DNA of 64,000 nucleotides from Bdellovibrionales bacterium (lineage in GTDB: Bacteria; Bdellovibrionota; Bdellovibrionia; Bdellovibrionales; JAUICD01), in assembly GCA_965262715.1 (NCBI GenBank), contig OZ253553.1, positions 288,001-352,000 on the forward strand, read 5' to 3'. The notes under the pieces were generated by a model, which made no database searches, was not told where the DNA came from, and saw only the letters and a list, made by a program, of their open reading frames with translations. Position 1 is the first letter of the stretch. Each line of letters opens with the position of its first letter. Positions 16,508-60,130 of the stretch are shown here, piece after piece. The position numbers were made by a program, and so were the translations under genes.

Positions 16508-16700
16508 TTGTTTTTTAGAAAAACAAGGAAAAAAATCTTTGGGGCGATGATTTGATATTTATGGCAAAGCCAAGTAGTCCTCAGGCTGTCGCCTTGCGGA
16601 AGAACTTGTCTTTTTGCCATAAATATCAAATTTTGACTTGTTATAAAGATTTAGATGATTTGTAAGGGAGAAAGAGAAGAAGATAGTAAAAGTTTTCCTT
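16508..16700 (+). repeat. Structured element B, copy 1
   Basis: TTGTTTTTTAGAAAAACAAGGAAA start; TTTGATATTTATGGCAAA/TTTGCCATAAATATCAAA stem; GTCCTC and TGCGGAAGA motifs. Confidence 0.85.
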
Positions 16701-16751
16701 ATTATCATTTGCGTTCAATTCCTCTATTTGAGAAAACCAAATATTGAGAGC

Positions 16752-16830
16752 GAAAAGAATAAGAGGTGATAAGAGCTAATGATAAAAATGAGAAGAAGCT
16801 CGCTTCACGAGTCTGGCCTCAGGGTAATGG
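16752..16830 (+). repeat. Module C, copy 1
   Basis: Similar to the reverse complement of 32974-33052 (CACGAGTCTGGCCTCA core). Confidence 0.7.
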
Positions 16831-16863
16831 TTTTGAAATTAGCTAAATAAATTGAAGGTCCAG

Positions 16864-16938
16864 CTCAACATTTTGTTAAAAAAGAAAGCGTATCTGTTCT
16901 ACTCAAAATAAACGGATTTTCTAAGCGATGACCATTTT
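16864..16938 (+). repeat. Truncated element A, copy 3
   Basis: CTACTCAAAATAAACGGATTTT shared with the copy at 57584; cut off by the next A copy. Confidence 0.65.
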
Positions 16939-17080
16939 CCTTAACATTGTGTTAAGGGACGAAGGTATCCTGCCTACAAAAAATGCATCAGGCTTTCTAG
17001 GCGATAACCATTTTCTGATGGAGCCATCAGGGTTATCGCCAGAAAGTGACCAGAGGTCAGATGCATTTTTTGTGAAACAG
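16936..17080 (+). repeat. Structured element A, copy 4 (overlaps mutY 3' end)
   Basis: GGCGATAACC/GGTTATCGCC, TGACC-AGA-GGTCA and AAAATGCATC/GATGCATTTT stems. Confidence 0.9.
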
Positions 17081-18073
17081 TGTCTTTGCAATAAGACTTG
17101 TTGGACTGTATTTTTTGATTTGAGGGAGATCGACCCATTGCTTTTGGGTAGTATCAAAGTCAAAGTCGTCTGATTGGAAATGTTTTTTTTGCATTTGTAC
17201 ATAAATATTATGATGAGTGATGGTGTGCTTGAAATCAAAAACTTCAGGAGGGTTTTTTAGTTTTTGAATTTGTCCAGGCCATATCCATTGTCCTTTTAAA
17301 AAAGCAGAATGATGATTTTTTACTAGTAGGACTTTATTCTTATAGCGATGATGATGATAGATTAAGGGTTTCCAAAGCCATGGCTCAGGCTTACGTCGCA
17401 ATCTCATTAAAGGCACGGTTTCTATTTGATGATGTTGATAACTTTTACATGTTTTTTGTAGAGGGCAGATATGGCAATTTGGAGATTGTGGTAAGCATAC
17501 TTTTGCACCTATTTCTATAAGTGCTTGATTGATATCTGCTACTTGATTGTCTTTTGCCCATTGATCAGCAAGGGATTGAAAATGTGAACGTCCTTGTGTA
17601 GTCCACCACTTTTCTTTGATCAAATGATAACGAGCTAAAAAACGAATCACATTACCGTCTAAGACTCCTACTTTTTGCCCAAAAGTAAAACTTGCAATAG
17701 CTCTACTCGTATAAGGGCCTATTCCTGGTAGAGCGATAAGTTTTTGCCAAGCCTTTGGAAATTGACCTTTATATTTTTTAAGGATAACTTGAGCTGTTTT
17801 ATGAATATTTTTAGCTCGTGTATAATAACCTAAACCGCTCCAAGCTTCTAAAACGTCATTTTCATTGGCTATGGCAAGGCTTTGGAGTGAGGGAAATTTT
17901 TTGAAAAATGCCTCATAGTAGGGAATAACGGTCACAGAAGTTGTTTGTTGCAACATGATTTCTGAAATCCAGATTTTATAAGGGTCTAGAGCTTTTTTTT
18001 GTGTTTCTCTCCATGGCAACTTGCGTCTATTTTGAAAATACCAATTTAGGAGTAACTTTTTTTTATTCATCAC
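17057..18073 (-). CDS. mutY: A/G-specific adenine glycosylase
   Basis: ISEIMLQQT, WSGLGYY, LPGIGPYT, DGNVIR and the CX6CX2CX5C Fe-S motif. Confidence 0.93.
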   Translation of the reverse strand: MMNKKKLLLNWYFQNRRKLPWRETQKKALDPYKIWISEIMLQQTTSVTVIPYYEAFFKKFPSLQSLAIANENDVLEAWSGLGYYTRAKNIHKTAQVILKKYKGQFPKAWQKLIALPGIGPYTSRAIASFTFGQKVGVLDGNVIRFLARYHLIKEKWWTTQGRSHFQSLADQWAKDNQVADINQALIEIGAKVCLPQSPNCHICPLQKTCKSYQHHQIETVPLMRLRRKPEPWLWKPLIYHHHRYKNKVLLVKNHHSAFLKGQWIWPGQIQKLKNPPEVFDFKHTITHHNIYVQMQKKHFQSDDFDFDTTQKQWVDLPQIKKYSPTSLIAKTLFHKKCI

Positions 18074-18294
18074 TTTTAAAAATCCAATTTATATAAAACT
18101 TTACATTATTAAAATAAATGTAATAAAGTACTTAGGTTTACGAATAGTGAAGTCTAAAAATATCCAAAATATTGATGGTTGTTACAGTTTATTTACCAAG
18201 AAACCTCTCATTTATATCTGTAAGTGTAAAGATATTTTTTGATGTTTTATTGAAGTTAATAGTCAGTTTTTATAGATCACTAAAGTAAGGTAAG

Positions 18295-18979
18295 ATGGTA
18301 GAGCATATCTCTGATCCTACACAGCTTTCTTTTGTTATGATTCTACTTTTAGGGCTTTCTTTATCTGTTCTTAGCGGTGCTGTGGGACCTTTTGTATTGG
18401 CAAGTAAGACAAGCTCCTTAATTGGTAGTGTTTCTCATGCCATATTGGCAGCTGTGGGCATTGCTGTTTATTTTGATTGGAATCAATCTCTATCAAAAAG
18501 GATATGATGGAGAAGAAATCATGCATGTTCTATTTGGCAACATAAAGCATCTTAATGAACAAGATATTGTTATTTTATGTGTAGGCAGTTTGAGTGTAGT
18601 AGGATTTGTTGTATATTATTTTAAGAAGTTTTCTAATATGGTTTTTGATCTTGGACGGTCAAAGCATCTAACACCTTCATCTCATTTGATATATTTATTT
18701 CTTTTAGGACTTATTTCCTTCACTGTGATACTGATGGTGAAATTTGTAGGGATTGTTTTGGTTTTATCTTTACTTTCTCTGCCAGCAGCAATAGCTACAC
18801 GATTGACTCAAAAAATGCATCAACAGATTTTTTATGGGATTGTTTTAGCAATGATCATGACATTTGGAGGCTTAAAATTGTCTTTTTTACTTTATTGGCC
18901 TATAGGGGCTACAATCACATTATTTAGCGGGATTTGTTATTTGCCATTTTTATTTAACAGAAAAAATAAAACTATTTGA
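18295..18979 (+). pseudogene. Zn/Mn ABC transporter permease (ZnuB/MntB-like), frameshifted and probably internally deleted
   Basis: N-part (SVSHAIL) and C-part (LFGNI, VGIVLV..LPAA) lie in different frames; total length is short. Confidence 0.7.
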
Positions 18980-19386
18980 AATATGGACATAATCATAGTA
19001 AGAATAATCTTTATAAGGATATATTTGTGAAAGAGATCATATCGAGATTTTATCAAGTCACCATTATTATTGTTTTTATTGTGATTTTTGTATCTTGTTC
19101 TTCATCATTAAAACAAAATAACCAAGGCTCTGCCCAAGATTCAGAAGAGCCGGCACAAGAAATGAAACCGGAATGGTTAGAATGTAAGGCAAATATGGAT
19201 TGTATAAAAGTAAAAGGTTTTTGCAAAATGCCAGCAGTGGTTCATGGAAAATACAAAGAAGCTTTTTTAGATTTTGTTAAGCAGAATAAAAATCCTATTG
19301 ATTGTAGTAGATATAAAGGTATAGATTATGATTCTATTGTAGAAGCTGCTTGTGAAAATAAGCAGTGCAAATTGATCATACCTTGA
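18976..19386 (+). CDS. Small Cys-containing lipoprotein
   Basis: IFVSC lipobox; several Cys; start uncertain. Confidence 0.55.
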   Translation: MKYGHNHSKNNLYKDIFVKEIISRFYQVTIIIVFIVIFVSCSSSLKQNNQGSAQDSEEPAQEMKPEWLECKANMDCIKVKGFCKMPAVVHGKYKEAFLDFVKQNKNPIDCSRYKGIDYDSIVEAACENKQCKLIIP

Positions 19387-19407
19387 TCTTAAAACTAAGT
19401 CTTTATT

Positions 19408-19498
19408 CATAAAATTATGTAAAAGTTTCATATCTATTATGTTATTTTTTCACAATCTTGGTCCATCTGGACAACAAATGTCACTTTTTTCTAACTCT
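19408..19498 (+). repeat. ~85-bp intergenic direct repeat, copy 1
   Basis: Similar to 20533-20612 and 23642-23732. Confidence 0.85.
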
Positions 19499-19714
19499 TA
19501 TCTCAAGATTTTTGTCAGTTTGAAAAATTATTTACAATATCTTTGTTATTTTGGTATAATAAATAAAGACTTTATTGTACAAGTGTCTCCACAATGAACG
19601 ATTTTTACAGAATTGTTACTTGTAAGCTTCTGGACACCTAATAAATAAGTGGTTAGATAGGCTGGCAAGTGTTAAATTGTTGATGTTTATGCAATAATCT
19701 TATAAACGTGTGGT

Positions 19715-20002
19715 ATGAGGGATAGAGTTGATTTTTCAAAAGTAGAAAAATATCTCAAACGGTTGCCAAAAAGGATATATGAATTATTTTTTATATGGGT
19801 TGATTTTATTGAGAAAGATGGATGGGAACATACAAGGCATTTGAAGGTATATAAAGATCATACTCTCAAAGGTTTTTGGAAAGGGTTTAGGTCAGTTAGC
19901 TTAAAATGGTCTTATAGGATTATCTATCAACACCAAAAAGATGGGAAAATAAATATTATTAAAATAGAAAGGATCAGCAAGCATGACTATAAAAAAAGCT
20001 AG
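19715..20002 (+). CDS. RelE/HigB-family mRNA interferase toxin
   Basis: YKDHTLKG.WKGFRSVSL..SYRIIY; toxin-first order, overlapping an HTH gene. Confidence 0.8.
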   Translation: MRDRVDFSKVEKYLKRLPKRIYELFFIWVDFIEKDGWEHTRHLKVYKDHTLKGFWKGFRSVSLKWSYRIIYQHQKDGKINIIKIERISKHDYKKS

Positions 20003-20345
20003 GCAAACAGCATCTCAGAAACTAGCAAAAAGATATGGTCCTCTTAGAATAGGTAGTGTTTTAAGGTTACATAGACAAGGGGATAAAATCACTCAACTTA
20101 AAATGGCTAAAAAATTAGGTGTTACTCAAAAAGAACTTAGAGAGATTGAAAATAACCGATTGCTTCCATTAGTGAATTTTGTACATAAGGCTGCTTTAGT
20201 ATTTAAAAGCAGTCCTAAAAGCTTTGAGAGAATCTTAAAAGAACAAATAAAAAGAGAAAAACCAAATAAGCTTATAAAGTTTCAAGCAACAGCAACTCAA
20301 CTTTTATCAATGATTCAAGCTGTATCAAGAGATAAAACTCAATAG
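19983..20345 (+). CDS. HigA-like Xre HTH antitoxin
   Basis: ITQLKMAKKLGVTQKELREIEN. Confidence 0.75.
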   Translation: MTIKKARQTASQKLAKRYGPLRIGSVLRLHRQGDKITQLKMAKKLGVTQKELREIENNRLLPLVNFVHKAALVFKSSPKSFERILKEQIKREKPNKLIKFQATATQLLSMIQAVSRDKTQ

Positions 20346-20532
20346 GTCATCAAAAATTCATCATTTTATTAGTTAAGAGTATTTAAAATTGAATAATCTT
20401 TCTTATTTTGAATAGAACGCTTTGTTTGCCAAAGTTGAGTTTTCCAGTTCTCTGGAATCTGGAAGTTATAGAAGTCAAGTTGGATACAAGTGCAGATAGA
20501 TTAATAAGAATCAATTCTATATAAGAATATTT

Positions 20533-20612
20533 CGTAAAATCATGTAAAAATTTCATATCTATTATGTTGTTTTTTCACAATCTTGGTCCATCTGGACAAC
20601 AAATGTCACTTG
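20533..20612 (+). repeat. ~85-bp intergenic direct repeat, copy 2
   Basis: Near-identical to copy 1, including the GTCCATCTGGAC palindrome. Confidence 0.85.
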
Positions 20613-20712
20613 TTTTTAGTATTTACTCTCTCTCTCTTTATAAACTACTAATATCACTTATTTTTTTTACATTTCCTTAACCTTTATGATTTGTAGTTTT
20701 TGTTTATATTTT

Positions 20713-20730
20713 TTGGCATTGATTGTGCAT
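20713..20730 (+). promoter_or_regulatory. Putative sigma54 promoter
   Basis: TTGGCATTGATTGTGCAT = GG-N10-GC, ~55 bp before the ATG. Confidence 0.5.
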
Positions 20731-20784
20731 CATTATGTTTGTTTTTACAGATGTATATGATCAATTTTTAAAAAGGAGCTTATA

Positions 20785-21642
20785 ATGAACTTTAGAAATT
20801 TTATATCAATATTTTGTGTTTTATTACACTTAACTTATTTAGCAGGATGTACTTCAAAAACAGATCAGCACGGCACATCCTCACCTCATCTTAGCATTGA
20901 TCAAGGGTTGCTGAATATTAATTCAGTAAATAACCGTCTAGTAACTCTTTGTAAAGCAGGTCAAGCCGTTGACTTTGCCCCTCCTCCTGGAACAGATCCG
21001 GTATATCTTATAGAAAATAAAGCAGGTAATGTACAGGTTGATGACTGTAACAAGTTTGAAACCCAAAAATCATATTTTGCTTTTATATATGATTTGGATG
21101 AAGATATCAACAATATCAACGATATTGAAAAAGCGAAAAACTTTAAAGTAGATGGATATGTTGTAGACCCAAGTCATCGCACAAGAATCCAAGAACTCTG
21201 TGAGTCTAATACCAATAAATTGGAAGATTACACATCTCTTGCAAAGATAGCCGCCTTTCTTGGTGTAACAACAGTCGCAGCCTCATATACAGCAGAAAGT
21301 GAAAATCCGGAATTTCAAGCAAAAATTGATGAGCTATTAAAAGATCATACAGCTGTGATGAAAATAGAATATGAATCAGTATTAAAGTCAGAATGTGCTA
21401 TTGAAACAGATATCGGAGTCGAAATGGATTTTGAGCATGCAGAAGATGAGGTTCATTTGTCAAGGATCTATTTTTATCGCAGAGGGCTTATTGGTTCTAG
21501 TATGAGTCCAATGGAGGTGAGTGTTAGTGGTGACAACTTTAATAGAGAAGCTCAATTAATAAGTGAAGATTTGGATACTTTATCCTTCACTTTTGAAATT
21601 ACACTCAAAGATAGTAATGATAAAGTGACTCCAAATTTATAA
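20785..21642 (+). CDS. Hypothetical lipoprotein
   Basis: Lipobox LAGC; AAGGAG RBS. Confidence 0.75.
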   Translation: MNFRNFISIFCVLLHLTYLAGCTSKTDQHGTSSPHLSIDQGLLNINSVNNRLVTLCKAGQAVDFAPPPGTDPVYLIENKAGNVQVDDCNKFETQKSYFAFIYDLDEDINNINDIEKAKNFKVDGYVVDPSHRTRIQELCESNTNKLEDYTSLAKIAAFLGVTTVAASYTAESENPEFQAKIDELLKDHTAVMKIEYESVLKSECAIETDIGVEMDFEHAEDEVHLSRIYFYRRGLIGSSMSPMEVSVSGDNFNREAQLISEDLDTLSFTFEITLKDSNDKVTPNL

Positions 21643-21669
21643 TCTCTTAAGTTGTTATGAATCTAAAAG

Positions 21670-21700
21670 AAAAGGCGGTGTTTGATAGCTGCCTTTTTTG
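21670..21700 (+). terminator. Intrinsic terminator
   Basis: AAAAGGCGG...CTGCCTTTTTT. Confidence 0.65.
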
Positions 21701-21818
21701 TTTCGCTGCAATAAGAATCATAAACTATGAGTAAAATGTAGGAATGTTTTCTCAATAAGGCTATAAAATAATATGACTTTTTAGGAGTAGATTCCGAAAT
21801 AGGCTAGTCTTTTTAGGA

Positions 21819-22264
21819 ATGATATCCGAAATAGTCTTGACGGTTCTAAAAAAAAATAAATCACTATTAAAGCAGCCCAAATATTACTTTTATGACACGG
21901 GACTTATCAAGGATCGTGGTGCTGCATTTGAAAATCTTGTAGCTTGCAGTCTTTTAAAAGAAAATCATTTTCGTGAGATTGTTATGGTGAAACGCGAGGG
22001 CTTTATTATTTAAAGAATAAAGATCAAAGAGAGATTGACTTTCTTATGACAAAGGATCATCAACCTATTGCTATGATTGAGGCAAAATTGACCGATTCTT
22101 TTTTAAGTCCTCACTTTAAAATTTTTGCAAAACAGCTTCCTCCGAATGTTCAAAAAATCCAGCTAGTTAAAAACTTAAAGACAGAAACAACTTTCCCTGA
22201 AAAATATGAAATATGCAAGGCTTCTCGTTGGCTTTCAACAATAGAGATTAAAAATGGTTTATGA
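21819..22264 (+). pseudogene. AAA+ ATPase/DUF4143 C-terminal remnant, frameshifted
   Basis: PKYYFYDTGL..FENLV, then REIDF..IEAK in another frame; ATPase part absent. Confidence 0.7.
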
Positions 22265-22599
22265 TTGAATTGGAAATCAAACAGGGAAGCTGTTTCAAAA
22301 ATAAGGTTTTATATTTTACAATTCGAGTTAAAACTCAAAGTGAACCTTTTTTAAAACCTATTTTTATTTGATTTAAGATCCGTAAAACACGACTTTGTGT
22401 CCAAGCGTTAGGACAATATCCAGCCTTAAACTTTTAAAAGTCTATTTATTTGGTGTTTTAGCCTCAAAAATATTGGCACGTATTTTGTATATATTATTTT
22501 CAGTCATCAACAATGTGATAGGTGGGAAAAAGCATGACTTGCAAAGTCATTTTTGGATGAACTTTGCAATTGATTGCGAAAGGTTAGGGGTATTTTTTA

Positions 22600-23607: not shown

Positions 23608-23641
23608 AGATAAATAAAGATTTATTTTGTAAGTCACATTT

Positions 23642-23732
23642 CATAAAACCATGTAAAAGTTTCATATCTGTTATGTTGTTTTTTCATAATTTTGGTCTGT
23701 TTGGACAGTAGGTGTCGCTTTTTTCTAACTCT
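23642..23732 (+). repeat. ~85-bp intergenic direct repeat, copy 3 (diverged)
   Basis: ATGTAAAAGTTTCATATCT..TTATGTTGTTTTTTCA shared with copies 1 and 2. Confidence 0.8.
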
Positions 23733-25020: not shown

Positions 25021-25024
25021 AACT

Positions 25025-32806: not shown

Positions 32807-32951
32807 GTTTCACTCAAGATGAATCTGCCTCTGGGAGTTTTTTGGCAATGACCCTGGCGGCTAATGCCCTCAGCAAATAGCTTATTGCCTAGAAAACATG
32901 TTTATTTTGAGTAAATAGATACTCTTCGTTTTTTATACCATGTTAGGGAAA
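32807..32951 (-). repeat. Structured element A, copy 5
   Basis: CCTCTGG, GGCAAT..ATTGCC and ATGTTAGGGAAA. Confidence 0.8.
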
Positions 32952-41633: not shown

Positions 41634-43595
41634 CTATCTCTTTTGCTTTATGTTCTGTTTATTTGATGTTGTTGGTGAATCTTTTTTTTTTGATTTTTTT
41701 TCTGTGTGAACTGAATCCATAATTGGATCATCAGATGAAGGATTAGAGAGAGTAGGCTCCTTTTCCTTACTTGAATCTTCTATTATCTTACCTTCTGTGG
41801 CAACTTGTTTTATCTCTGAGATATCACCTGGAGCAGGCAGGTCTTTATTTGCGCTTTTAGTAGAGTCGCTGAGATTTTGAGATGACTTTGTTTGTGTATC
41901 TGTATTGATCTTAATATCTTCACTTGAATCTTCTATTATCTTACCTTCTGTGGCAACTTGTTTTATCTCTGAGATATCACCTGGAGCAGGCAGGTCTTTA
42001 TTTGCGCTTTTAGTAGAGTCGCTGAGATTTTGAGATGACTTTGTTTGTGTATCTGTATTGATCTTAATATCTTCACTTGAATCTTCTATTATTTTATCTT
42101 CTGTGGCAACTTGTTTTATCTCTGAGATACCTGGAGCAGGTAGGTTTTTATTTGCGCTTTTAGTAGAGTCGCTGGGATCTTGAGATGACTTTGTTTGTGT
42201 ATCTGTATTGATCTTAATATCTTCTTCTTTTTTCTCTTCTGTTTGTTGATCATTGACTTGCTTTTTAGTTTGTGATGTTGGAGCGGTACTTTCGCTTGCA
42301 TCTTGCGTTTTTGTAGCAAGTGATGGGATCTGCTTATCCTTATATTCTTCAATAAATGCCTTAGATTCACCAATGAGCTTGAGGGCTTTGTTTTTATCCT
42401 CATAACCAGGAATGGCCATAACTTCCTCTGCTGTGGCTTCTGCTAAGGATTTAATAGAGCTAAAATTGCTTTGATAAATATTTTGAGCCATTGTATCTGA
42501 GATATTTTCAAGGAGAGAAAGGTTGAAGATAGCCTCTGCTTGCCTTTTTGCGACATCAGATTCAGAAACAATTTTCATCTGCCATCCTGTGAGCTTTGTG
42601 GCTAAGCGAACATTTTGACCTTTTTTACCTATAGCTAAGCTAAGTTGTGCATCTGGTACGACAATCTCCATTTCTTTATTTTCTTCATTGATAAAAACTC
42701 TTGCCACTTCAGAAGGTTGAATGGCGTTGCAGACAAAGTTAATAATGTCCTCTTTGAAAGGAACAATGTCTATTTTTTCTCCTTGTAATTCCTGTACTAC
42801 GTTTTGTACACGACTTCCTTTCATGCCCACACAGGCACCTACAGGGTCAACAGCATTATCTTTAGAAACAACAGCTATTTTAGCGCGAGAACCTGGTTCT
42901 CTAGCTGCTGCCACAATCTTTACAATTCCATCATGAACTTCTGGAACTTCAATCTCAAACAGCTTGATCATATATTTCTCGTCTGTTCGTGACATAATGA
43001 TTTGTGGGCCTCTCCCTGTCTGCTTGACATCTAAAATATAACCTTGAACACGATCTCCAGGTTTATAGATTTCTCCAGGGATCTGCTCACTTTGAGGTAA
43101 ATAGGCTTCTGTTCGTCCTAGATCAACCACAATAGTTCTGTATTCCACTCTTCTTACAATCCCAGAAGCAATTTCTCCTCTTCGTTTTTCAAATTCTTGA
43201 AAGATGATTTCATGTTCTGCATCACGTACTTTTTGCATAATGATTTGCTTAGCTGTCTGAACAGCTACTCTTCCTAAATCTGATGAGTCCATTTTAATCC
43301 CAATATAGTCACCAATTTTGCATTCAGGGTCTAATTCTTTAGCTTCTGCAAGCTTGATTTCTACCTCTTCATCCACAAAGGTTTCGGGGTCTACGACTTC
43401 CTTGAATTGATGCAATTCAATTTCACTGGAATCTTCATTATAACTAGATTCAATCTCCTTATAAGTTCCATATTTTTTTCGAGCAGCCAGCAACATCCCT
43501 TGAACAATAGCATCAATAACAATTTGTTTTTGGATGCCTTTATCCCTTACTATGGTCTCAATCAATTTGTCTAAGCTAGAAAATTCGGCACCCAT
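41634..43595 (-). CDS. nusA: NusA with long repetitive C-terminal extension
   Basis: AREPGSRAK, GACVGMKG, AIGKKGQNVRLA. Confidence 0.95.
   Translation of the reverse strand: MGAEFSSLDKLIETIVRDKGIQKQIVIDAIVQGMLLAARKKYGTYKEIESSYNEDSSEIELHQFKEVVDPETFVDEEVEIKLAEAKELDPECKIGDYIGIKMDSSDLGRVAVQTAKQIIMQKVRDAEHEIIFQEFEKRRGEIASGIVRRVEYRTIVVDLGRTEAYLPQSEQIPGEIYKPGDRVQGYILDVKQTGRGPQIIMSRTDEKYMIKLFEIEVPEVHDGIVKIVAAAREPGSRAKIAVVSKDNAVDPVGACVGMKGSRVQNVVQELQGEKIDIVPFKEDIINFVCNAIQPSEVARVFINEENKEMEIVVPDAQLSLAIGKKGQNVRLATKLTGWQMKIVSESDVAKRQAEAIFNLSLLENISDTMAQNIYQSNFSSIKSLAEATAEEVMAIPGYEDKNKALKLIGESKAFIEEYKDKQIPSLATKTQDASESTAPTSQTKKQVNDQQTEEKKEEDIKINTDTQTKSSQDPSDSTKSANKNLPAPGISEIKQVATEDKIIEDSSEDIKINTDTQTKSSQNLSDSTKSANKDLPAPGDISEIKQVATEGKIIEDSSEDIKINTDTQTKSSQNLSDSTKSANKDLPAPGDISEIKQVATEGKIIEDSSKEKEPTLSNPSSDDPIMDSVHTEKKSKKKDSPTTSNKQNIKQKR
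41769..42224. repeat. 153-bp (51-aa) tandem repeat x3 inside nusA
   Basis: Units start at 41769, 41922 and 42075. Confidence 0.92.
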
Positions 43596-49206: not shown

Positions 49207-49282
49207 TCAGAGATAGCTCAGTTGGTAGAGCAGTTGACTGTTAATCAATTGGTCGGGGGTTCGAGTCCCTCTCTCTGAGCCA
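49207..49282 (+). tRNA. tRNA-Asn(GTT)
   Basis: Full cloverleaf, TCAGAGA/TCTCTGA acceptor stem, GTT anticodon, CCA end. Confidence 0.97.
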
Positions 49283-49310: not shown

Positions 49311-50130
49311 TTTTCCTTAACATTGTGTTAAAGAATGAGGGTAGTCTCCTCCTAAAAATAGACAGATTTTTTAGGCAATGATCATTTTACGAGGACGTTA
49401 GTCGTCGTGATCATTGCCAAAAAACAGCCAGAGGTGTGGAAGTATATTGTTTTTTAGAAAAACAAGGAAAAATCTTGAAGGAGCTGAAAATTGATATTTT
49501 AAGCTAAGTCTCGAAGTCCTCGATGAGATCGCCAAAAAGCGATCTCATCTGCGGAAGATCTCGTCTTTAGCTTAAAACATCAAATCTTAATTCCTATGAT
49601 AAAGATTATAGGTGATTTGTAAGGAGAAGAGACGGTAAGAGGAAGTTTTCCTTAACATTGTGTTAAAGAATGAGGGTAGTCTCCTTACTAAAAATAGACA
49701 GATTTTTTAGGCAATGATCATTTTACGAGGACGTTAGTCGTCGTGATCATTGCCAAAAAGCAGCCAGAGGTGTGGAAGTATATTGTTTTTTAGAAAAACA
49801 AGGAAAAATCTTGAAGGAGCTGAAAATTGATATTTTAAGCTAAGTCTCGAAGTCCTCGATGAGATCGCCAAAAAGCGATCTCATCTGCGGAAGATCTCGT
49901 CTTTAGCTTAAAACATCAAATCTTAATTCCTATGATAAAGATTATAGGTGATTTGTAAGGAGAAGAGACGGTAAGAGGAAGTTTTCCTTAACATTGTGTT
50001 AAAGAATGAGGGTAGTCTCCTTACTAAAAATGAACAGGTTTTTGAGGCAGTTAGCATTTTCTTGAAGGCGTGAGCCTTCAGGCTAACTGCCCAAAAGTGG
50101 CCAGAGGCCAGTTCATTTTTAGGGAAACAG
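49311..50130 (+). repeat. Tandem array A-B-A-B-A (period 335-336 bp)
   Basis: A copies start at 49311, 49646, 49982; B copies at 49447, 49783. Confidence 0.93.
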
Positions 50131-52615: not shown

Positions 52616-54739
52616 ATGAAATGTGTAAACTTATGGGTTATAGCTTACTGTACATTAGTAGTTGGTTGTTCTTCTTCAACAACGGAAGACAGACCTAATG
52701 CTCTTGCAGAAACCCTTCAGAGCAACACTGTAAGTAATTGCCATATCTCTCGGGTTGTTTCTGAAGAGACTCAAGCTATTATATGGAAGGCTATATGGAA
52801 TGAGGATAGAAAAGAAGTTATTGCTTTAGATAATGATAGAGATAGAGATAGGTATACTTTTTCAGAAGCTATGTCTGTTAATGATAAAGATATAAAGGTT
52901 TTGCTTTCTGATCGCTCACTACTTTCATTACGTCGTTCTTATAGAGTAGTAGGTAATGATATTAGTTTTAAGGTTCTTTATATTAAGCCTTCAAATTCAG
53001 ATGAAGAGAATATGATACAGGCTGAACTTCATGTAGTTAAAATAGAAGATTTGAAAAAGGTCCATAATGAGGGTGAAGAAATACTCAGTGATCTTCCTGT
53101 CAGTGAAGCAGAAGCTTGCTATACATTACTTGCTCAAAAAGTAGAAAACACTGTAGTGTCTGTAGAATCTATAGGTGAAGAAGGTTGGAAAGACCCTGAT
53201 AAGATAAAAAGCTTATTTGATAATAGAGAAATTTATCAAACAGTTTCTTCTAGCGCTTGGAAGTCATCTGATCAATCTGAAACATTGAATGCGCAGACAG
53301 CCATGAATGTGGAGCTTATAGATATCATAACTGATGGTCGTGATCCAATAAGTATTGCTTTTACGCAATCTAATTCAGAATTTAACGACCCTACATCTTC
53401 AGTTAGACCTTCCATTATAGGATTGGAAATCCCTATTACAGGAAGTGGAATTCCTATTATAGGTAATCTTATGAGAGATAATCTAGATGATGAAATTTTC
53501 AATCTAGATATCAAGAAGAAAACTCTCAATCCTTTTGAACTTATCTTTGATTTTTCAGGTGGAAGAGCTAATAACCAGGTAGATTTTACTGTTTCTGTTC
53601 AGACAACCGAATTTTTATCTCAACCTGAAGATTCAAATCAAGCTACTTCTCAAGAAATAGAGACTCAATCTATACCTCAATCTAATGTTCAGGCAGAAAC
53701 TCCCCAAGTTCAAACTGCATTGCAAGCTGCCGACCATGAGACAAAAAATCAAGAACAACCTATAACTGAAGCAGAAACCGAATCAGTACCTCAGGTTGCA
53801 GTTGAAACACAGCTTCAATATCAACCTACAACTGAGTTTGAAATACTGTCTCCACCTGAAATGAGTGAAAATTGTAAAAGCTCTGATAGTTTTATTTCTG
53901 CTTCTGAGGAGACTCAATCTATTATATGGCAAGCCAGATGGAATGCTTCTCAAAATCAAATTGCCTCTTTAAGGCATATTAGAGATACTTATACCCTTTT
54001 AAATGCTGTATCTGCAAATGGTTCAGATATAAGTATTGTCATTTCTGATGAAGATTTACTTATTCGTGAGAGTCGATTTAGCAGACTCAATACAGAGACT
54101 TTTCAGGTGCTTTATATTCCAAATGCAAGCATAAATGATACAATACAGTTTAATTTGCATAAGCTGACACAAGAGGAACTTGAGCCTATTTATCTGGCAG
54201 CTAAAAATCATGAAGTGTTACTCGACCATCCAGCAACTCAAATGGAAGCTTGTTATACAATCAAATTAGAAAGAATGGATGACACTTCAATTTTTGCAGA
54301 ATATGACCCAGATACTTCTTCAAGGAAAGAGAATAAAATTAAAGACCTCTTTCAAAACAGGGTAGTGTTTAGAACAACCTCTTATAGTACTTGGGTGTTA
54401 GGGAATTCCTCTGATATAAATATAATGCGAGAGGCAGCTACGCATTTAGAACTTGAGGATATTTCAGAAGATGAGCGTACTCCATTGAATATTGCCTTTA
54501 AACACTCCTTACCATTTAATGATTCTATATCTTCAATTAGACTTTTTATCGTGGATGTGAAGATATCATCTTGGGGGTTTCTGACAAACAATCTTGATAA
54601 TGAAATATTCAACAGACATTTGAAAGGACAATCCTTAGATCCTTTTGAGCTTGTTTTTGGTTTTTCAATAGGAGAGTCTGAAGACAAAAAAGATTTCACT
54701 ATAGGAATTACTTCAGTACCACTTGCTCAATCAGAATAA
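52616..54739 (+). CDS. Lipoprotein with two homologous ~300-aa domains
   Basis: VVGC lipobox; SEETQ.IIW.A.WN, EACYT, NLD.EIFN and PFEL.F.FS each occur twice. Confidence 0.75.
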   Translation: MKCVNLWVIAYCTLVVGCSSSTTEDRPNALAETLQSNTVSNCHISRVVSEETQAIIWKAIWNEDRKEVIALDNDRDRDRYTFSEAMSVNDKDIKVLLSDRSLLSLRRSYRVVGNDISFKVLYIKPSNSDEENMIQAELHVVKIEDLKKVHNEGEEILSDLPVSEAEACYTLLAQKVENTVVSVESIGEEGWKDPDKIKSLFDNREIYQTVSSSAWKSSDQSETLNAQTAMNVELIDIITDGRDPISIAFTQSNSEFNDPTSSVRPSIIGLEIPITGSGIPIIGNLMRDNLDDEIFNLDIKKKTLNPFELIFDFSGGRANNQVDFTVSVQTTEFLSQPEDSNQATSQEIETQSIPQSNVQAETPQVQTALQAADHETKNQEQPITEAETESVPQVAVETQLQYQPTTEFEILSPPEMSENCKSSDSFISASEETQSIIWQARWNASQNQIASLRHIRDTYTLLNAVSANGSDISIVISDEDLLIRESRFSRLNTETFQVLYIPNASINDTIQFNLHKLTQEELEPIYLAAKNHEVLLDHPATQMEACYTIKLERMDDTSIFAEYDPDTSSRKENKIKDLFQNRVVFRTTSYSTWVLGNSSDINIMREAATHLELEDISEDERTPLNIAFKHSLPFNDSISSIRLFIVDVKISSWGFLTNNLDNEIFNRHLKGQSLDPFELVFGFSIGESEDKKDFTIGITSVPLAQSE

Positions 54740-54741
54740 AC

Positions 54742-54761
54742 TAGAACCGGTCTCAAAAATA
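54742..54761 (+). repeat. 20-bp direct repeat, left
   Basis: TAGAACCGGTCTCAAAAATA, identical at 57141. Confidence 0.85.
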
Positions 54762-55186
54762 CATGATAGTAGTAAATAATACAAAATTGCAAAATACAAA
54801 ACATAATATAACCATTACCAGATCACGAATCATAAGAAATGATCTCAATGAATATTAAGAGCTTTCTTATATAAATTGTGTAAAAACACTTGAAACTTAA
54901 ACTCAACCCTTTTTATTGAGGTGTTTTTACGTAAGATCAGTAATAAGTAAGAAATTTCAGGCTTATAAACTTGTTGTATGTAGCTTCTTATTCAAACGTG
55001 TTGGCTCATATAAATAGAGAATTATTGACATATATAGATTCATCTAGATATACTGCGTTATTTGTGTTATGTTAGAGTTTAGATGGTATTTTTACAATTT
55101 TTTAATTGTACTTTAAGTAAATATAGTGTACAAGGGTTTATTTATGATATTCGTTATTTTTTGAATTAAGAAATTGGATTTAATTT

Positions 55187-55840
55187 ATGAAAAAAATAAT
55201 ATTAACAAATAGTGCAATAACTCTGGTTACACAAAATCAACCGCAATCTGTAAATCATGAATTCTTGGTTCAAAAAGATATTATTCCCAAGGACTTTCAA
55301 GTTAATGATAAAGAAGTTTTTTATACGCCTTTTGCAAGTAAAATAGGGTATACAAATGGATTTGGTATAATAACTGAGCCAGATAGAATATTGTTTCAAG
55401 TATCAAGGATACCTAATTTTGAAGAAAAAAAGAAGAATTATTTAGATTTACTAGAGAATATTTCATTAAATTATGTAACTTTTTTTAAAGAGATGATAAA
55501 ATGGGAGGCTGTGGGGATCAATTTTCAGTTTATAAAGGATGACTTACAATTTGACACTTTTGTTGACCAATCTATAAAACTAAATAGTTCATGGTTTAAT
55601 TTTGAAGGTAAAAAAGGTGACATTCAAAAGATTGATATATCTTATGATTTGAAGGGTAAGCAGTTCAATATAATTATTCATAAAGGTTTAAAAAGAAATA
55701 TTCAAAGTAACAATGAAGATTCTTGTACATTTTTTACAATAAATGTACATTATCGCGATAAATATGACGATATAGTTAATATTATTAGTGAATTAAAAGA
55801 AAATTATGAAAAATCACAAGAATTTATAGGTAGAAGCTAA
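55187..55840 (+). CDS. Hypothetical protein (possibly TIGR04255-like)
   Basis: 217-aa ORF; beta-rich AVGINF pattern; family call tentative. Confidence 0.5.
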   Translation: MKKIILTNSAITLVTQNQPQSVNHEFLVQKDIIPKDFQVNDKEVFYTPFASKIGYTNGFGIITEPDRILFQVSRIPNFEEKKKNYLDLLENISLNYVTFFKEMIKWEAVGINFQFIKDDLQFDTFVDQSIKLNSSWFNFEGKKGDIQKIDISYDLKGKQFNIIIHKGLKRNIQSNNEDSCTFFTINVHYRDKYDDIVNIISELKENYEKSQEFIGRS

Positions 55841-56502
55841 TGAATTCAGGAAAATCTGAAGGTATAAAATTTGAACTGCTTTTGCCAAGAATAACATCAC
55901 TTTTGCAGAAACCCACACAACGAAAAGAGACCTATTATTGTGGAAATACATTTGATACAGGTATAAACTTCTCTCATAACTTACTAGATAATAATAACAC
56001 AAATTTATTTTTAGTTGAGGATGTTGTTTCTCTGCAACATGTTCTTAACTTTTTATATGATCATAATTACAAAATAAAAAATGAGTTAGATAAAATTTTA
56101 AAAGATTTACATGAATTCTGTAAAAAAGAAGGCTTTGAACTTTTTTCTGATAAAGCAAAAGAAAATGCTATACAAATTATAAAATTTATAAAAAATCATT
56201 ATCCTGATTATGATTGGGATATTTATGCTACAGAAGATCAAGAAATTGCAGTAGACTGTACACTTGAAAAAGGAGGCTTATTGATACTTTGTGACTCAAG
56301 TGGGGAATTAGCTTATTTCAAAACACTTAATGGAAAAAACAGTAGATATAGATGTCAAGATATTAATGACTTTCCTTTCGATCAACTAAAAAGAGAACTT
56401 AATTCTTTAGAGGATTATTCATTAAAACCTTCATTAGTTGATGTTGATACGAAGATATATGATTTTATAAAACCAGTGGGTCTTTTTGTAGAATCAAAAT
56501 GA
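55840..56502 (+). CDS. Hypothetical protein
   Basis: Translationally coupled on both sides (TAATG, ATGA overlaps). Confidence 0.6.
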   Translation: MNSGKSEGIKFELLLPRITSLLQKPTQRKETYYCGNTFDTGINFSHNLLDNNNTNLFLVEDVVSLQHVLNFLYDHNYKIKNELDKILKDLHEFCKKEGFELFSDKAKENAIQIIKFIKNHYPDYDWDIYATEDQEIAVDCTLEKGGLLILCDSSGELAYFKTLNGKNSRYRCQDINDFPFDQLKRELNSLEDYSLKPSLVDVDTKIYDFIKPVGLFVESK

Positions 56503-56903
56503 ATATAAGGTTGTCTAAAGATGTAAATGATGATGATAAGCTTGGAAGAGGTAGTTTTTCAACAAAAGATGTAAATAAAGCTGGCAAAGTAAGATACTGT
56601 TTATTCTTTTATAAAAGAAAAGACACTATTTCTGTAGACCGTCTTTTTAATTTTTGTTTAGAAAAACTAACAGCTATTCAAGATAAACATGCTCAAAAAA
56701 GAAATCAATTTTATGGATGGGCTGGTATAAAAACCTTAGATGCTAAAAAAAATGGTAGAAAAACTCAATCAAATCCAGTTAAAGACAACCCCTATCATGC
56801 TAATATTATTCTACCTAAAAACATAGAAGATGATGATCGAAGAAGCCATGCTAAGGAGCTTGCGTTTTACTCTAAATGGGTTGAAAGATATAAATCAGGA
56901 TAA
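56499..56903 (+). CDS. Putative ADP-ribosyltransferase-like toxin
   Basis: LGR, ISVDR and NPYHANI motifs resemble small ART-fold toxins. Confidence 0.45.
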   Translation: MNIRLSKDVNDDDKLGRGSFSTKDVNKAGKVRYCLFFYKRKDTISVDRLFNFCLEKLTAIQDKHAQKRNQFYGWAGIKTLDAKKNGRKTQSNPVKDNPYHANIILPKNIEDDDRRSHAKELAFYSKWVERYKSG

Positions 56904-57140
56904 ATTTTAGTCTTTAGATAATTTTGTTTTTATGTTTTTGAGAATGAGTGAATGACTTCAGGGTATATGTTACCGGGAGTTGATAATGTTATTTTGATTT
57001 TAGACTGGCTTTCCTCACAATCCTTCTCTTGTTTATCATTATCAACCCTTATAGATTCTAGAAGACTTCAAGATGAACTTAGTGATTTAGGACTATTGTC
57101 AATTCGAGATAAGATATTGAAGTTATAAGCTATATCTTAT

Positions 57141-57160
57141 TAGAACCGGTCTCAAAAATA
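57141..57160 (+). repeat. 20-bp direct repeat, right (abuts a partial element E at 57105-57141)
   Basis: Identical to 54742-54761. Confidence 0.85.
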
Positions 57161-57306
57161 AAAATTTAATAAACATTTCCAGTGATTCATAACTTTATCT
57201 AACTATAATGTATATCAGTGTTCACCTTCGTCTATAAACGTTTGTACCTATTACCTCTAATTTCTTGTATAAAAGGGTTATCTTCCTCAAAATGAATCAG
57301 CTTTTT

Positions 57307-57468
57307 TTTCACTAAAATGCATCTGACCTCTCGAGGCGAGCCTCTGGTCACTTTCTGGCAGTAAGCCCGACGGCTCTTATGGCCGTCGGCAAATAGCTTA
57401 CTGCCTGGAAAGGCTAATGCATTTTAGTAGGGAGGATCTTCTTGTTTCTTAGCACAATGTTAGGGAAA
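57307..57468 (-). repeat. Structured element A, copy 9
   Basis: GGCAGTAAGC/GCTTACTGCC, CGACGG/CCGTCG and ACTAAAATGCAT/ATGCATTTTAGT stems. Confidence 0.9.
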
Positions 57469-57583
57469 TTTTATTCTTGCCATCGGATCAGTACCTAGAT
57501 TTATTTCATGGACAATCCTCAAAAAGGCTAGCCTCGAGAGGCTTGTCTTCTATTCATTTTGAGTAAAAGCAGGATGAAGGAAG

Positions 57584-57727
57584 TTTTCCTTAACATGATG
57601 TAAAAGAACGAAGAGATCCTCTCTACTCAAAATAAACGGATTTTTAAGGCAATCAGCATTTTGTTGACGGTGTTAACCGTCACGCTGATTGCCCAAAAAC
57701 AACCAGAGGTTGGTTTATTTTGAGTGA
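57584..57727 (+). repeat. Structured element A, copy 10
   Basis: GGCAATCAGC/GCTGATTGCC, CAACC-AGA-GGTTG and ACTCAAAATAAAC/GTTTATTTTGAGT stems. Confidence 0.9.
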
Positions 57728-57877
57728 GTTTGTATAATGCAAAACTGGTATTTTTTTCTAAAATTGTTATCTCTAATAGCATTTTTGAGATGGCTTCTAA
57801 CTGATCTTACTTGTATAAACTATGCCAAAATACTTGATTTCTTTACCTTCTATGAAATGGCAACAGCCTCTAGTAGA

Positions 57878-58531
57878 TTAGTCATTATTTTTATTATTTG
57901 GGGAAGGAATAGATGTATTTTGAGAAAAGTATAGAGGTTTATCAAGTTTTACTTTTATCTCTTCTGAATCTGACTCTTCTGATATAAAAGAAACTTCTGA
58001 GATAAACCATAATTCTGGCCAGAAATCTGTCATAGAGGATGAAGAAATCAACGTTTGGTTGTATTCTACTGGACGGGTCGTCATTTGAGAAGGTGTTATT
58101 TCTGAAAACATTGTTATTGGAATTTGTAATGACTGGATATAATTGTTTTCACCTATTATACAAGGGCTTTTTAGAGTCAATGAAGGCTTTTCCCCTGATA
58201 CAGCCACTCCATCTGCTAAAACTTTTACTTCAATAGTCTGAAAGTATTCGCAAGCACTTCTGCCTTTTTTGCCATCAACTTGCATTTGGAAATGTGGTAA
58301 ATGAATGTTAATATCCTCTGTTTGATAAGTGATATGCAACTCTTTCAAGAGTCTATTGATAGTGGCTTTTTCAAGAGAACCACCTGACAGTTCAGAATAA
58401 TCAGTATGTATATCCTTTGGAATAGAAGCTAACTGACGCTCAGTCATTTTATGGGGTTTGGAATAAAAAAAGCCAAGCGAAAACATTAAGATAAACAGTA
58501 AAATAGAGCAAAATAATTTGAAAAAGTTCAT
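57878..58531 (-). CDS. Membrane-anchored hypothetical protein
   Basis: N-terminal TM helix followed by an RQLAS motif. Confidence 0.6.
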   Translation of the reverse strand: MNFFKLFCSILLFILMFSLGFFYSKPHKMTERQLASIPKDIHTDYSELSGGSLEKATINRLLKELHITYQTEDINIHLPHFQMQVDGKKGRSACEYFQTIEVKVLADGVAVSGEKPSLTLKSPCIIGENNYIQSLQIPITMFSEITPSQMTTRPVEYNQTLISSSSMTDFWPELWFISEVSFISEESDSEEIKVKLDKPLYFSQNTSIPSPNNKNND

Positions 58532-58705
58532 ATCTATATTACTATCGGCAAATCAGACTGTTGGTTTTGAATTTTTTTCTACAAATTTGATTTTAATGAC
58601 ATTTGCTGATTTATTTCGACTATTTTATTGAATTGGTGTGAGAAAGAGGCTTATCTTGTAGAGATTTCTAATATATATTGTACAATAGATAATAAGGAAA
58701 ATACT

Positions 58706-59152
58706 ATGAAAACACTGTCAAAAAAGGCTAGACCAGAAGATTGGATTGCTCAATTTCAATCTTTAGACAGCTGGGAAGAAAGATATCGTCACATCATCCA
58801 AATGGGTAAATCTATAGAGCCATTAGAAACCCGATATCAAACTGAAGAGTATTTGGTAAAAGGCTGTCAATCTAAAGTCTGGCTTGTAGCCTCCTTTGAT
58901 CCTCCTAAGGTTCATTTTAAGGCCAATAGTGATGCCCTTATTGTTAATGGGTTGATTGCTATTTTACTAGAAGTGTATTCAGGAAAAGCTCCTCAAGACA
59001 TTCTCAAGTTATCTCCTACATTTATAGAACAATTAGGGCTTAATACTCATCTTTCTCAAACCAGATCTAATGGATTGATTGCAATGATCAAGCAAATTAA
59101 ATACTATGCTCTTGCTTTTTCATCCTTATCAGAATCTGGTAAAAAGGTCTAA
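58706..59152 (+). CDS. sufE: SufE-family sulfur acceptor
   Basis: VKGCQSKVW, SDALIVNG, LSQTRSNG; ATG 58706 has an RBS. Confidence 0.9.
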   Translation: MKTLSKKARPEDWIAQFQSLDSWEERYRHIIQMGKSIEPLETRYQTEEYLVKGCQSKVWLVASFDPPKVHFKANSDALIVNGLIAILLEVYSGKAPQDILKLSPTFIEQLGLNTHLSQTRSNGLIAMIKQIKYYALAFSSLSESGKKV

Positions 59153-59155
59153 AAA

Positions 59156-59932
59156 ATGTTTCATGTACCTGTAAGATATATATCCAGTTTTGATAATCCT
59201 CGATTTAAGCTTTGGACATCTCTTAAAAAAGCAAAAGGGATCAAAAAAGCAAACAAATGTCTAGTTTCAGGCCGAAAAATTTTAGAAGAATTATCACAAC
59301 AAAAGCCTCATCTTTTTGATGAAATTTTATATCCACAGCAATTAGAAGTTCATCACACACAACAGAATGATGGGCTTTTAGAGTTTGCCAGTAAGCTATC
59401 TCTACCTGTGTTTAGATTAAAGCAAGATTTGTTTAAGTGTTTAGATCTTTTTGAAATAAATGCCCCTATAGGTGTTTTAAAAGTACCTCAGATAGATTCA
59501 TGGGATGAAAATCAACCTTGTAAAAATAAAGAGATACTTTTACCTTTGGGAAATTCTTTAAACTTAGGAGTTGTTATTCGCTCAGCCAGAGCCTTTGATA
59601 TTTCAAGTGTAGTCCTTTTAGAAGAAGCTGCTCATCCATTTCTACCACAAGCCATTCGATCTTCTAGTGGTGCTGTATTTCACACTTTTTTTCTTTTAGG
59701 TCCTTCTATTCGAGAGCTTCAAAAGCCTCTTTTAGCTTTAGCATTAAATGGAGTTCCTTTAACAAAATTTGTTTGGCCTAAGGAGGCTAGGCTTCTCATC
59801 GGAGAGGAAGGTTTAGGACTTCCATCAAACTTGTCTATGACCCCTATTTCTATAAAGATAGCAAAAGAAGTGGATTCATTAAATGTAGCTGTAGCTACGG
59901 GGATTGCTTTACATCATTGGCAATCCAGTTAA
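59156..59932 (+). CDS. TrmH/SpoU-family RNA methyltransferase
   Basis: NLGVVIRSA, GEEGLGL, DSLNVAVA. Confidence 0.88.
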   Translation: MFHVPVRYISSFDNPRFKLWTSLKKAKGIKKANKCLVSGRKILEELSQQKPHLFDEILYPQQLEVHHTQQNDGLLEFASKLSLPVFRLKQDLFKCLDLFEINAPIGVLKVPQIDSWDENQPCKNKEILLPLGNSLNLGVVIRSARAFDISSVVLLEEAAHPFLPQAIRSSSGAVFHTFFLLGPSIRELQKPLLALALNGVPLTKFVWPKEARLLIGEEGLGLPSNLSMTPISIKIAKEVDSLNVAVATGIALHHWQSS

Positions 59933-59940
59933 AGAGATTG

Positions 59941-60130
59941 TGTTTTTTTAGAAAAAACAAGGAAAAAATCTTTAGAAGCTTTGGTTTGATGCATAAGTTA
60001 AGTCCTCGAGCTATCGCTTGGATAGCGATAGCTCTGCGGAAGACCTCGTCCTTTAACTTATACATCAAACTTTATTTGCCATGAAAAGATTTAGTGTGAT
60101 TTGTAAGAAGAAGAGATAGTAGTAGGAGGA
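59941..60130 (+). repeat. Structured element B, copy 4
   Basis: GAGCTATCGCT/AGCGATAGCTC apical stem between GTCCTC and TGCGGAAGA. Confidence 0.88.

What the first reader, a model, noticed from the sequence alone, without database searches (positions are those of the whole stretch)
16508..60130. Second covarying ~195-bp module (B) that docks onto the start of module A
Four copies (16508, 49447, 49783, 59941) share fixed motifs: a TTGTTTTTTAGAAAAACAA hairpin, GTCCTC, TGCGGAAGA and TGATTTGTAAG. The stems between them vary: TTTGATATTTATGGCAAA/TTTGCCATAAATATCAAA, TTGATATTTTAAGCTAA/TTAGCTTAAAACATCAA, TTTGATGCATAAGTTAA/TTAACTTATACATCAAA. The apical hairpin is fully exchanged (AGGC/GCCT, GATGAGATCGC/GCGATCTCATC, GAGCTATCGCT/AGCGATAGCTC). 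Every B is followed by TTTCCTTA, the start of A (or of the C-containing segment), which can pair with AAGGAAA near B's 5' end. Inference: a fixed scaffold with a swappable hairpin and a shared junction, consistent with modular assembly of a larger RNA or targeted insertion.
Basis: partly seen in the sequence, partly recalled or inferred. Interest (0 to 1): 0.72.

Follow-up and report, generated by a model that had tools for sequence, protein, structure and literature searches.

The report
Hairpin module of a composite repeat
The flagged 190-base stretch is a real, long hairpin with a fixed internal loop and freely exchanged stems that is scattered dozens of times through two related uncultured bacteria as the upstream passenger of a much commoner repeat, so it looks like part of a new selfish repeat family whose copying enzyme is unidentified, not like a piece of an RNA that docks onto its neighbour.

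Summary
B is real, but copies 2 and 3 are one tandem duplication. Genome-wide there are 98 B-like loci. Of the 44 with an intact 3' end, 41 run into an A/C start. Another 30 are the core hairpin alone inside one IS30 family, and 16 are core-only copies without A. B folds as one rod with strongly compensated stems around a fixed motif, AGTCCTC-hairpin-TGCGGAAGA. Same-genus G001 has 47 copies with that motif but wholly different GC-rich stems; 42 precede an A start. Docking is not supported: no covariation, pairing probability above 0.5 in 1 of 16, AAGGAAA in 2 of 47 G001 copies. B's 5' 'hairpin' is a degenerate A 3' end. B positions are lineage-specific (0 shared among 318 conserved gene junctions), so it is mobile. 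No long flanking duplication (0 of 28 clusters), and no RAYT, IS110 transposase or reverse transcriptase common to both genomes. Best reading: a module of a polar, BIME/BOX-like composite repeat, read as a fold, mobiliser unknown. Earlier scan notes described an A-like family in this genome; none returned described B.

The parts
16508..16693 (+). B copy 1: degenerate A-end leader, rod-shaped hairpin, purine-rich linker
16576..16603 (+). conserved core AGTCCTC-[AGGC TGTC GCCT]-TGCGGAAGA of copy 1
16694..16860 (+). module C (starts TTTCCTTA); 34 blast hits in the genome, only this one preceded by B
16864..17080 (+). truncated A (16864-16938) followed by a full A (16936-17080)
16066..16365 (-). 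four-helix-bundle gene (PF05635), 146 nt upstream of B1 and divergent from it; multi-copy family often next to or interrupted by A
49207..49282 (+). tRNA-Asn directly upstream of the A-B-A-B-A array
49312..49463 (+). A copy whose 3' end is replaced by the B leader (overlap 14 nt)
49447..49646 (+). B copy 2 (core 49515-49558)
49647..49799 (+). A copy between B2 and B3 (336-bp tandem unit)
49783..49982 (+). B copy 3, identical to copy 2 (core 49851-49894)
49983..50130 (+). terminal full A of the array
59941..60130 (+). B copy 4 (core 60001-60043), starting just after the stop of a SpoU-family gene
60131..60277 (+). full A after B4
14202..14521 (-). two A copies without B
32807..32951 (-). A copy without B
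57307..57727 (.). divergent pair of A copies (57307-57468 minus, 57585-57727 plus) without B

Best explanation
B is one module of a polar, composite, non-autonomous interspersed repeat system confined to one genus of uncultured Bdellovibrionales-like bacteria. Shown: B is a long rod whose stems can be replaced wholesale while an asymmetric internal loop (AGTCCTC opposite TGCGGAAGA) is kept; it sits between an A 3' end (or a remnant of one) and an A start; its positions differ between two species; B-A can be added as a unit, with a variable 5' end and without a target duplication. Inferred: A, with its sharply fixed 3' end, is the part that is copied, and it carries along whatever lies upstream (B, C, four-helix-bundle cassettes, stretches of flank). 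Existing A ends are preferred landing sites, and recombination between A copies gives arrays such as A-B-A-B-A. Inferred: the B core is recognised as a folded single strand by a protein, as REP hairpins are by RAYT, more likely as DNA than as RNA; a ~100-nt core can also spread without A and once entered an IS30 that then amplified it. The enzyme is not identified.
For: 98 B loci and 455 A hits in G000; 47 B-type cores and 1312 A hits in G001. Covariation on 31 aligned copies: 90.2% of cells paired, 138 cells changed on both sides, 0 of 500 shuffles as high; 15 of 20 pairs of the long stem compensated. Motif kept across both species with unrelated arms. Polarity: of 68 non-IS30 loci, 35 full, 9 cut at the 5' end, 44 with a 3' end of which 41 precede an A/C start. 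Mobility: of 318 conserved gene junctions, B in G000 only 3, G001 only 2, both 0; A 9, 12, 0; at one junction the two genes overlap by 7 nt in G001 but are separated by a 5'-shortened B plus A in G000. At rpsQ-rplN G000 has four A units while a close relative has A-A-B-A. An IS30 copy at 83% amino-acid identity lacks the core. Non-Watson-Crick cells in G000 B stems show no G.T excess: 36 G.T to 35 A.C over extended stems, 8 to 15 apical, 6 to 15 in the long stem, on 4 columns each.
Against: No mobilising enzyme found: one IS200-type Y1 transposase with no A or B nearby in G000 and none in G001; no reverse transcriptase in G001; no IS110 transposase in either; the IS91 search was blank but so were its controls. 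No close strain pair with a clean empty site was obtained for any window copy. DNA versus RNA rests only on mismatch counts from related copies. A does show a G.T excess on the given strand (48 to 17 and 27 to 8 by arm haplotype, but 10 to 9 and 8 to 4 by site type), which fits an RNA stage as well as single-stranded DNA. Sixteen core-only copies without A need a second route or later loss of A.
Confidence: 0.58

Rival explanations
1. B and A are domains of one larger structured RNA, joined by pairing of A's start with B's 5' end.
For: Fixed order and strand of B then A in both species; both fold well and covary; A tolerates G.T on the given strand.
Against: Docking neither covaries nor is predicted and is absent in G001; A occurs about ten times more often alone; B mismatches favour neither strand in G000 and the opposite strand in G001 (15 sites A.C to 4 G.T, p = 0.019, sites not fully independent); copies lie in both orientations to flanking genes; no Rfam match.
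Confidence: 0.1
2. B-A is a small retroelement or retrozyme-like replicon: an RNA copied by a reverse transcriptase from A's 3' end, with 5' truncation, the conserved loop being a new self-processing or enzyme-binding motif.
For: Fixed 3' end and ragged 5' ends; head-to-tail multimers; 10 of 193 A loci have a 16-nt or longer duplication starting at A's 3' end against 4 of 3000 controls; G000 has three reverse-transcriptase matches.
Against: G001, with three times more A, has no PF00078 match (90% complete); no known ribozyme matches; 0 of 28 B-containing clusters have such a duplication.
Confidence: 0.08
3. B is kept by the host as an RNA hairpin at gene ends (mRNA stabiliser, processing site or terminator), and spreading is incidental.
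For: Upstream gene on the same strand for 26 of 40 B copies with a 3' end, several within 20 nt of a stop; arms covary even among IS30-borne copies, where B is not needed for movement.
Against: No shared positions between the two species; in IS30 and behind a retron-like gene the transcribed strand is the reverse complement; gene calls were crude.
Confidence: 0.1
4. The covariation is a by-product of template switching or conversion between the arms of a palindrome, with no selection on fold; B is inert DNA captured upstream of A.
For: Arms are near-perfect Watson-Crick and change in blocks. Quasi-palindrome correction is recalled knowledge, not tested here.
Against: The non-complementary loop motif, which such correction would erase, is the best-kept part in both species while the arms are unrelated.
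Confidence: 0.1
5. B is a miniature derivative or end of the IS30 element, moved by its transposase.
For: 30 of 98 B-like loci lie in that IS30 family.
Against: The core lies inside the element, 44-70 nt past the transposase stop, not at the inverted repeats; other B copies carry no IS30 ends; a related IS30 copy lacks it; no IS30 cluster appeared among the 25 largest protein clusters of G001.
Confidence: 0.03

Closest known systems
Composite interspersed repeats: E. coli BIME, Neisseria NIME, pneumococcal BOX (boxA-boxB-boxC) (PMC3049150, passages read)
   Same: Intergenic, multi-copy, built from separately folding modules in fixed order, optional inner modules, tandem expansion, copies inserting next to each other.
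   Different: BOX has terminal inverted repeats, makes target duplications and is linked to ISSpn2 in that paper; B has no terminal repeats and no duplication, is 190-230 nt, and shows whole-arm replacement around a fixed internal loop.
GTAG-tagged REP / REPIN elements and RAYT (TnpA-REP) (PMC3733652 passages; PMC8266576 abstract)
   Same: Imperfect hairpin with a conserved bulge, in some copies preceded by GTAG (GTAGTCCTC...), variable stems, clustering with flanking DNA in tandem.
   Different: Most copies have GAAG, the tag lies inside a longer rod, no inverted REP doublet, and no RAYT gene in G000 or G001.
MITEs such as Correia, RUP, Nezha (PMC3049150 passages)
   Same: Short, AT-rich, highly folded, non-coding, lineage-specific positions.
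   Different: No terminal inverted repeats on B, no fixed short target duplication, no resident IS with matching ends among the six IS-type loci inspected.
IS91/ISCR rolling-circle elements with one fixed end and capture of adjacent DNA (recalled)
   Same: One sharp end, variable other end, carriage of upstream sequence, no target duplication.
   Different: No Y2 transposase match (controls also blank); no conserved target tetranucleotide after A's end.
Retrozymes and viroid-like circular RNAs (recalled)
   Same: Rod-like fold, 340-nt head-to-tail multimers.
   Different: No known ribozyme, no reverse transcriptase in G001, no RNA evidence.

Membership tests
REP/REPIN-RAYT | GTAG tetranucleotide at the foot of an imperfect hairpin | tested here: inconclusive
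   GTAG precedes the TCC/GGA hairpin in a subfamily, GAAG in most G000 and all G001 copies; it is internal to a longer rod
REP/REPIN-RAYT | RAYT gene flanked by the repeats | tested here: not met
   One IS200-like PF01797 match in G000 with no A or B hit in its 3.4-kb locus; none in G001
REP/REPIN-RAYT | two REPs in inverted orientation | tested here: not met
   One asymmetric motif per B; B and A on the same strand
MITE | terminal inverted repeats matching a resident IS | tested here: not met
   B has none; ends of six IS-type loci shown and of IS30 do not match A or B ends
MITE | target-site duplication | tested here: not met
   0 of 28 B clusters with 12 nt or more; short duplications at control level over 193 loci
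BIME/NIME/BOX-type composite repeat | multi-copy, intergenic, modules in fixed order and orientation | tested here: met
BIME/NIME/BOX-type composite repeat | sequence homology to a described family | not tested
   No library of these repeats was searched; the motif was at chance level in the other genomes of the order
Rfam RNA families including ribozymes | covariance-model match at gathering score | tested here: not met
   Window: tRNA only; 9 B loci at E up to 5: only tRNA above threshold
IS30 end | located at or containing the terminal inverted repeat | tested here: not met
   Internal, and absent from a related IS30 copy
IS110/IS1111 non-coding region (bridge RNA) | IS110 transposase in the genome; variable loops on a fixed scaffold (recalled) | tested here: not met
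   No PF02371 match in G000 or G001, controls ring in 6 of 14; here loops are fixed and stems vary
IS91/ISCR rolling-circle element | Y2 transposase | tested here: inconclusive
   No PF04986 match in 5 genomes, but none in the 14 controls either
Retroelement / retrozyme | reverse transcriptase available in all carriers | tested here: not met
   3 matches in G000, 0 in G001 at 90% completeness
Retroelement / retrozyme | self-cleaving RNA and circular RNA form | not testable with these tools
   No RNA run listed

The most novel reading that the evidence does not exclude
A and B belong to an undescribed class of non-autonomous element that spreads to over a thousand copies without RAYT, IS110, matching DDE transposase or reverse transcriptase. 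It is copied from one fixed end and recognised through folds on opposite strands (A on one, B on the other), and the AGTCCTC/TGCGGAAGA loop is the recognition or self-processing site. The multi-copy four-helix-bundle (PF05635) gene, which in G001 sits in the same upstream cargo position as B (A follows within 8-103 nt on the same strand in 9 of 11 listed genes), or the Rpn nucleases, would supply part of the machinery.
Probability: 0.13. Interest if true: 0.8.

Novelty: new variant of a known kind. Interest (0 to 1): 0.45.

Why it matters
How short bacterial repeats spread when no cognate transposase is present is an open question (stated for CGTC repeats in PMC3733652). This family offers a tractable case: over a thousand copies in one genome, a fixed 3' end, modular upstream cargo, and one short loop motif kept between two species whose stems share no sequence. 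That motif is a direct bait for finding the protein. If no new machinery is involved, it is one more lineage-specific composite repeat with modest local effects on gene junctions.

Tried and rejected
Rfam: nothing but tRNA. Docking by covariation and by partition function: rejected; the first docking listing had a strand error and was redone. RAYT, IS110, IS91 and integron-type partners: none found; two PF00589 matches each in G000 and G001, not examined further. Reverse transcriptase as common partner: absent from G001. PF05635 looked perfectly co-distributed with A/B until G004's B-bearing contig C11 proved to carry a second, G000-like rplN; G004's large contigs hold most of its 19 PF05635 matches with no A-start pattern listed on them, so the link is not exclusive; contig C4 is taken as foreign by likeness only. 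Rpn (PF04754): 16 matches in G003, which has no A; its apparent 60-of-64 enrichment near A in G001 is inflated by spurious frames made of A itself and by A insertions into Rpn genes; in G000 7 of 29 hits are near A/B. Within-genome empty-site search gave none for a B cluster. Sequencing runs: no RNA holder listed; laying four contig sets showed no joint that skips B4-A among the 15 joints displayed, 37 not shown; no conclusion drawn. Orthologue loci of two window genes in G001-G004 had no A/B, but synteny was mostly broken. Six literature searches found no description of this repeat; they cover open-access text only and were not by sequence. No supplements were read.
Full report
Observation. 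All four copies are at the stated places with the stated motifs. Copies 2 and 3 are an exact 336-bp tandem duplication, so the window holds three independent versions. The two copies folded are more stable than all 200 shuffles (z -5.24 and -3.72). The window lies at 288001-352000 of a single 2.94-Mb contig of 33.6% GC. Earlier scan notes call the organism an uncultured Bdellovibrionales-like bacterium, and records titled Bdellovibrionales carry the same motif family.

Anatomy. On 31 aligned copies (30 from G000, 1 from G004) I named a structure by inspection of column pairing and counted it. B is one rod: an outer stem AAATCTTT/AAAGATTT (92% paired, no compensation), a weaker second stem, a 20-pair long stem (94% paired, 15 pairs compensated), a 3-pair TCC/GGA stem inside the fixed motif AGTCCTC...TGCGGAAGA, and an apical hairpin of 4-12 pairs. 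Overall 90.2% of 1410 cells pair, 138 change on both sides, 0 of 500 shuffles reach this, and slid controls fall to 34-52%. Relatedness of copies inflates such counts, but whole arms are exchanged.

Census in G000. 98 B-like loci against 455 A hits, 308 near full length. Thirty B-like loci are the core hairpin inside a 1.36-kb IS30 element (family named from the transposase sequence, recalled), downstream of the gene and on the other strand. Of the other 68: 35 full (33 followed by an A or C start), 9 cut at the 5' end (8 followed), 19 core-only or 3'-cut (3 followed), 5 fragments (4 followed). C has 34 hits, one preceded by B. An IS30 copy at 83% amino-acid identity has a short 3' end with no core, so the core is a passenger there, though loss from that copy is not excluded.

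Relatives. A covariance model matched G001 (33), G004 (5) and not G002 or G003. The exact motif occurs 54 times in G000, 47 in G001, 3 in G004, once without a hairpin in G003, and as 11 single chance-like matches among the other order genomes (301 searched). G004's contig C11 carries a second rplN that is 95% identical in DNA to G000's, while G004's own is 79% identical in protein to it, so those copies come from a G000-like strain. In G001 the motif is flanked by GC-rich arms unrelated to G000's and by a different outer stem, yet 42 of 47 copies are followed 72-105 nt later by an A start and 28 are preceded by an A end. What is conserved is the loop motif, the rod and the position between A ends.

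Docking. Of 30 G000 copies with both ends readable, 14 have AAGGAAA with TTTCCTT, 14 lack AAGGAAA, and 2 combine it with TTTCCCT; no compensation. In joint folds of B plus A the pairing has probability above 0.5 in 1 of 16. In G001 2 of 47 have AAGGAAA in the 5' part. Docking is rejected as a conserved feature.

Which strand, DNA or RNA. G000 B stems: 36 G.T to 35 A.C and 8 to 15, 6 to 15 on four columns each. G001 arms: 4 sites G.T to 15 A.C. A central arm: 48 to 17 and 27 to 8 by haplotype, but 10 to 9 and 8 to 4 by site type. So A leans to the given strand and B does not. This argues against one RNA, but copies are related and biased mutation could give the same pattern. No RNA run was listed.

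Mobility. Among 318 gene junctions conserved between G000 and G001, B is in 3 and 2 with none shared, A in 9 and 12 with none shared. At one, genes that overlap in G001 are separated in G000 by a 5'-shortened B plus A only. At rpsQ-rplN G000 has four A units, each behind a copy of the rpsQ end, and the G000-like contig has A, A, B, A. A's 3' end is sharp; its 5' side carries variable purine-rich linkers. Ten of 193 A loci have a duplication of 16 nt or more starting at the 3' end (control 4 of 3000), none of 28 B clusters does, and short duplications are at control level. In four-helix-bundle genes A interrupts the same region with a 15-20-nt 5' linker and about 3 nt lost; these may descend from one event.

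Partner enzyme. Not found. PF01797: one IS200-like gene without A/B nearby in G000, none in G001. PF00078: three in G000, none in G001. PF02371: none in either. PF04986: none, controls blank. PF05635 genes are multi-copy in G000 (34 hits), G001 (14) and G004 (19); in G001 9 of 11 listed have an A 8-103 nt downstream on the same strand, the same place B takes. But G004's own contigs have them without A. Rpn genes are in G003 without A. Both are leads, not partners shown.

Mechanism. Most likely (0.58) B is cargo and sometime independent hairpin in a polar composite repeat: A is copied from its fixed end with upstream modules, lands often behind another A, and arrays grow by recombination. The fixed asymmetric loop is inferred to be a protein recognition site on a folded single strand, by analogy with the bulged REP hairpin required by TnpA-REP (PMC8266576, abstract). 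Steps shown: structure, order, lineage-specific positions, unit gain. Steps inferred: direction of copying, nature of the strand, existence of a recogniser.

Comparison and novelty. It works like BIME, NIME or BOX composites (PMC3049150, passages) and like REPs (PMC3733652, passages) but fails membership of REP-RAYT, MITE, IS30 end, IS110 and Rfam families on tested features. Six paper searches found no description. Earlier notes in this scan describe a three-way-junction repeat in this genome that matches A in size and copy number; look-ups by B's sequence and by relatives returned nothing. Verdict: new variant of a known kind, interest 0.45.

Noticed in passing
G000:C1:399677-401034 and about 25 like copies (L050): IS30 family carrying the B core after its transposase gene; the arms covary among IS copies; a relative near 963585 lacks the core.
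   Followed up: yes
window 16066-16365 and 33 other tblastn hits in G000: Four-helix-bundle (PF05635) genes with heptamer-repeat flanks; many are interrupted by A near codon 67, and the 3' third travels behind A.
   Followed up: partly
G001, e.g. L424:12492-13654, L425:7566-8806: Rpn-like nuclease genes repeatedly split by an A insertion at the same place, leaving short C-terminal frames.
   Followed up: partly
G004 contigs C11 and C4 (L002, L004, L064): Small contigs that look like a G000-like organism binned into G004; C11 has a second rplN.
   Followed up: partly
window about 6200-8190: IS1634-type element (family recalled) flanked by a direct repeat of about 49 nt.
   Followed up: no
G000:C1:2842754-2843520: Four A units between rpsQ and rplN, each behind a ~53-nt copy of the rpsQ end; the insertion seems to have changed rpsQ's last codons.
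   Followed up: partly
G000, many arrays (e.g. 86592, 1808386, 2313983, 2868258): Tandem units of A plus 82-91 nt of flank recur at unrelated loci, and 30-32-nt duplications at others; a preferred length is unexplained.
   Followed up: partly
L055 (G000:C1:2649241-2652813): tRNA-Asp, inverted A, partial tRNA copy, a core-only B, then a 590-aa retron-like reverse transcriptase gene with a long N-terminal domain.
   Followed up: no
G000:C1:2198524-2198863: Four tandem tRNA-like units with an unassigned anticodon loop upstream of tRNA-Trp.
   Followed up: no
G000, k-mers; loci 2607210 and 2693943: About 60 copies of a CRISPR-like repeat resembling Cas12a repeats (recalled); stray copies lie directly behind A ends.
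   Followed up: no
G000:C1:476742-490459: Another small palindromic repeat (CGCCCA-loop-TGGGCG followed by GTAG) in arrays, with A inserted beside it at three loci.
   Followed up: no
window 41764-42219: 153-bp tandem repeats within the 3' part of a 653-aa nusA gene.
   Followed up: no
window 8100-13589: 1829-aa protein with cysteine-rich internal repeats and no Pfam match.
   Followed up: no
window 19396, 20521, 23630; 5686, 45641, 57100: Two further dispersed repeats (108 nt and 43 nt), the first next to an Rpn gene.
   Followed up: no
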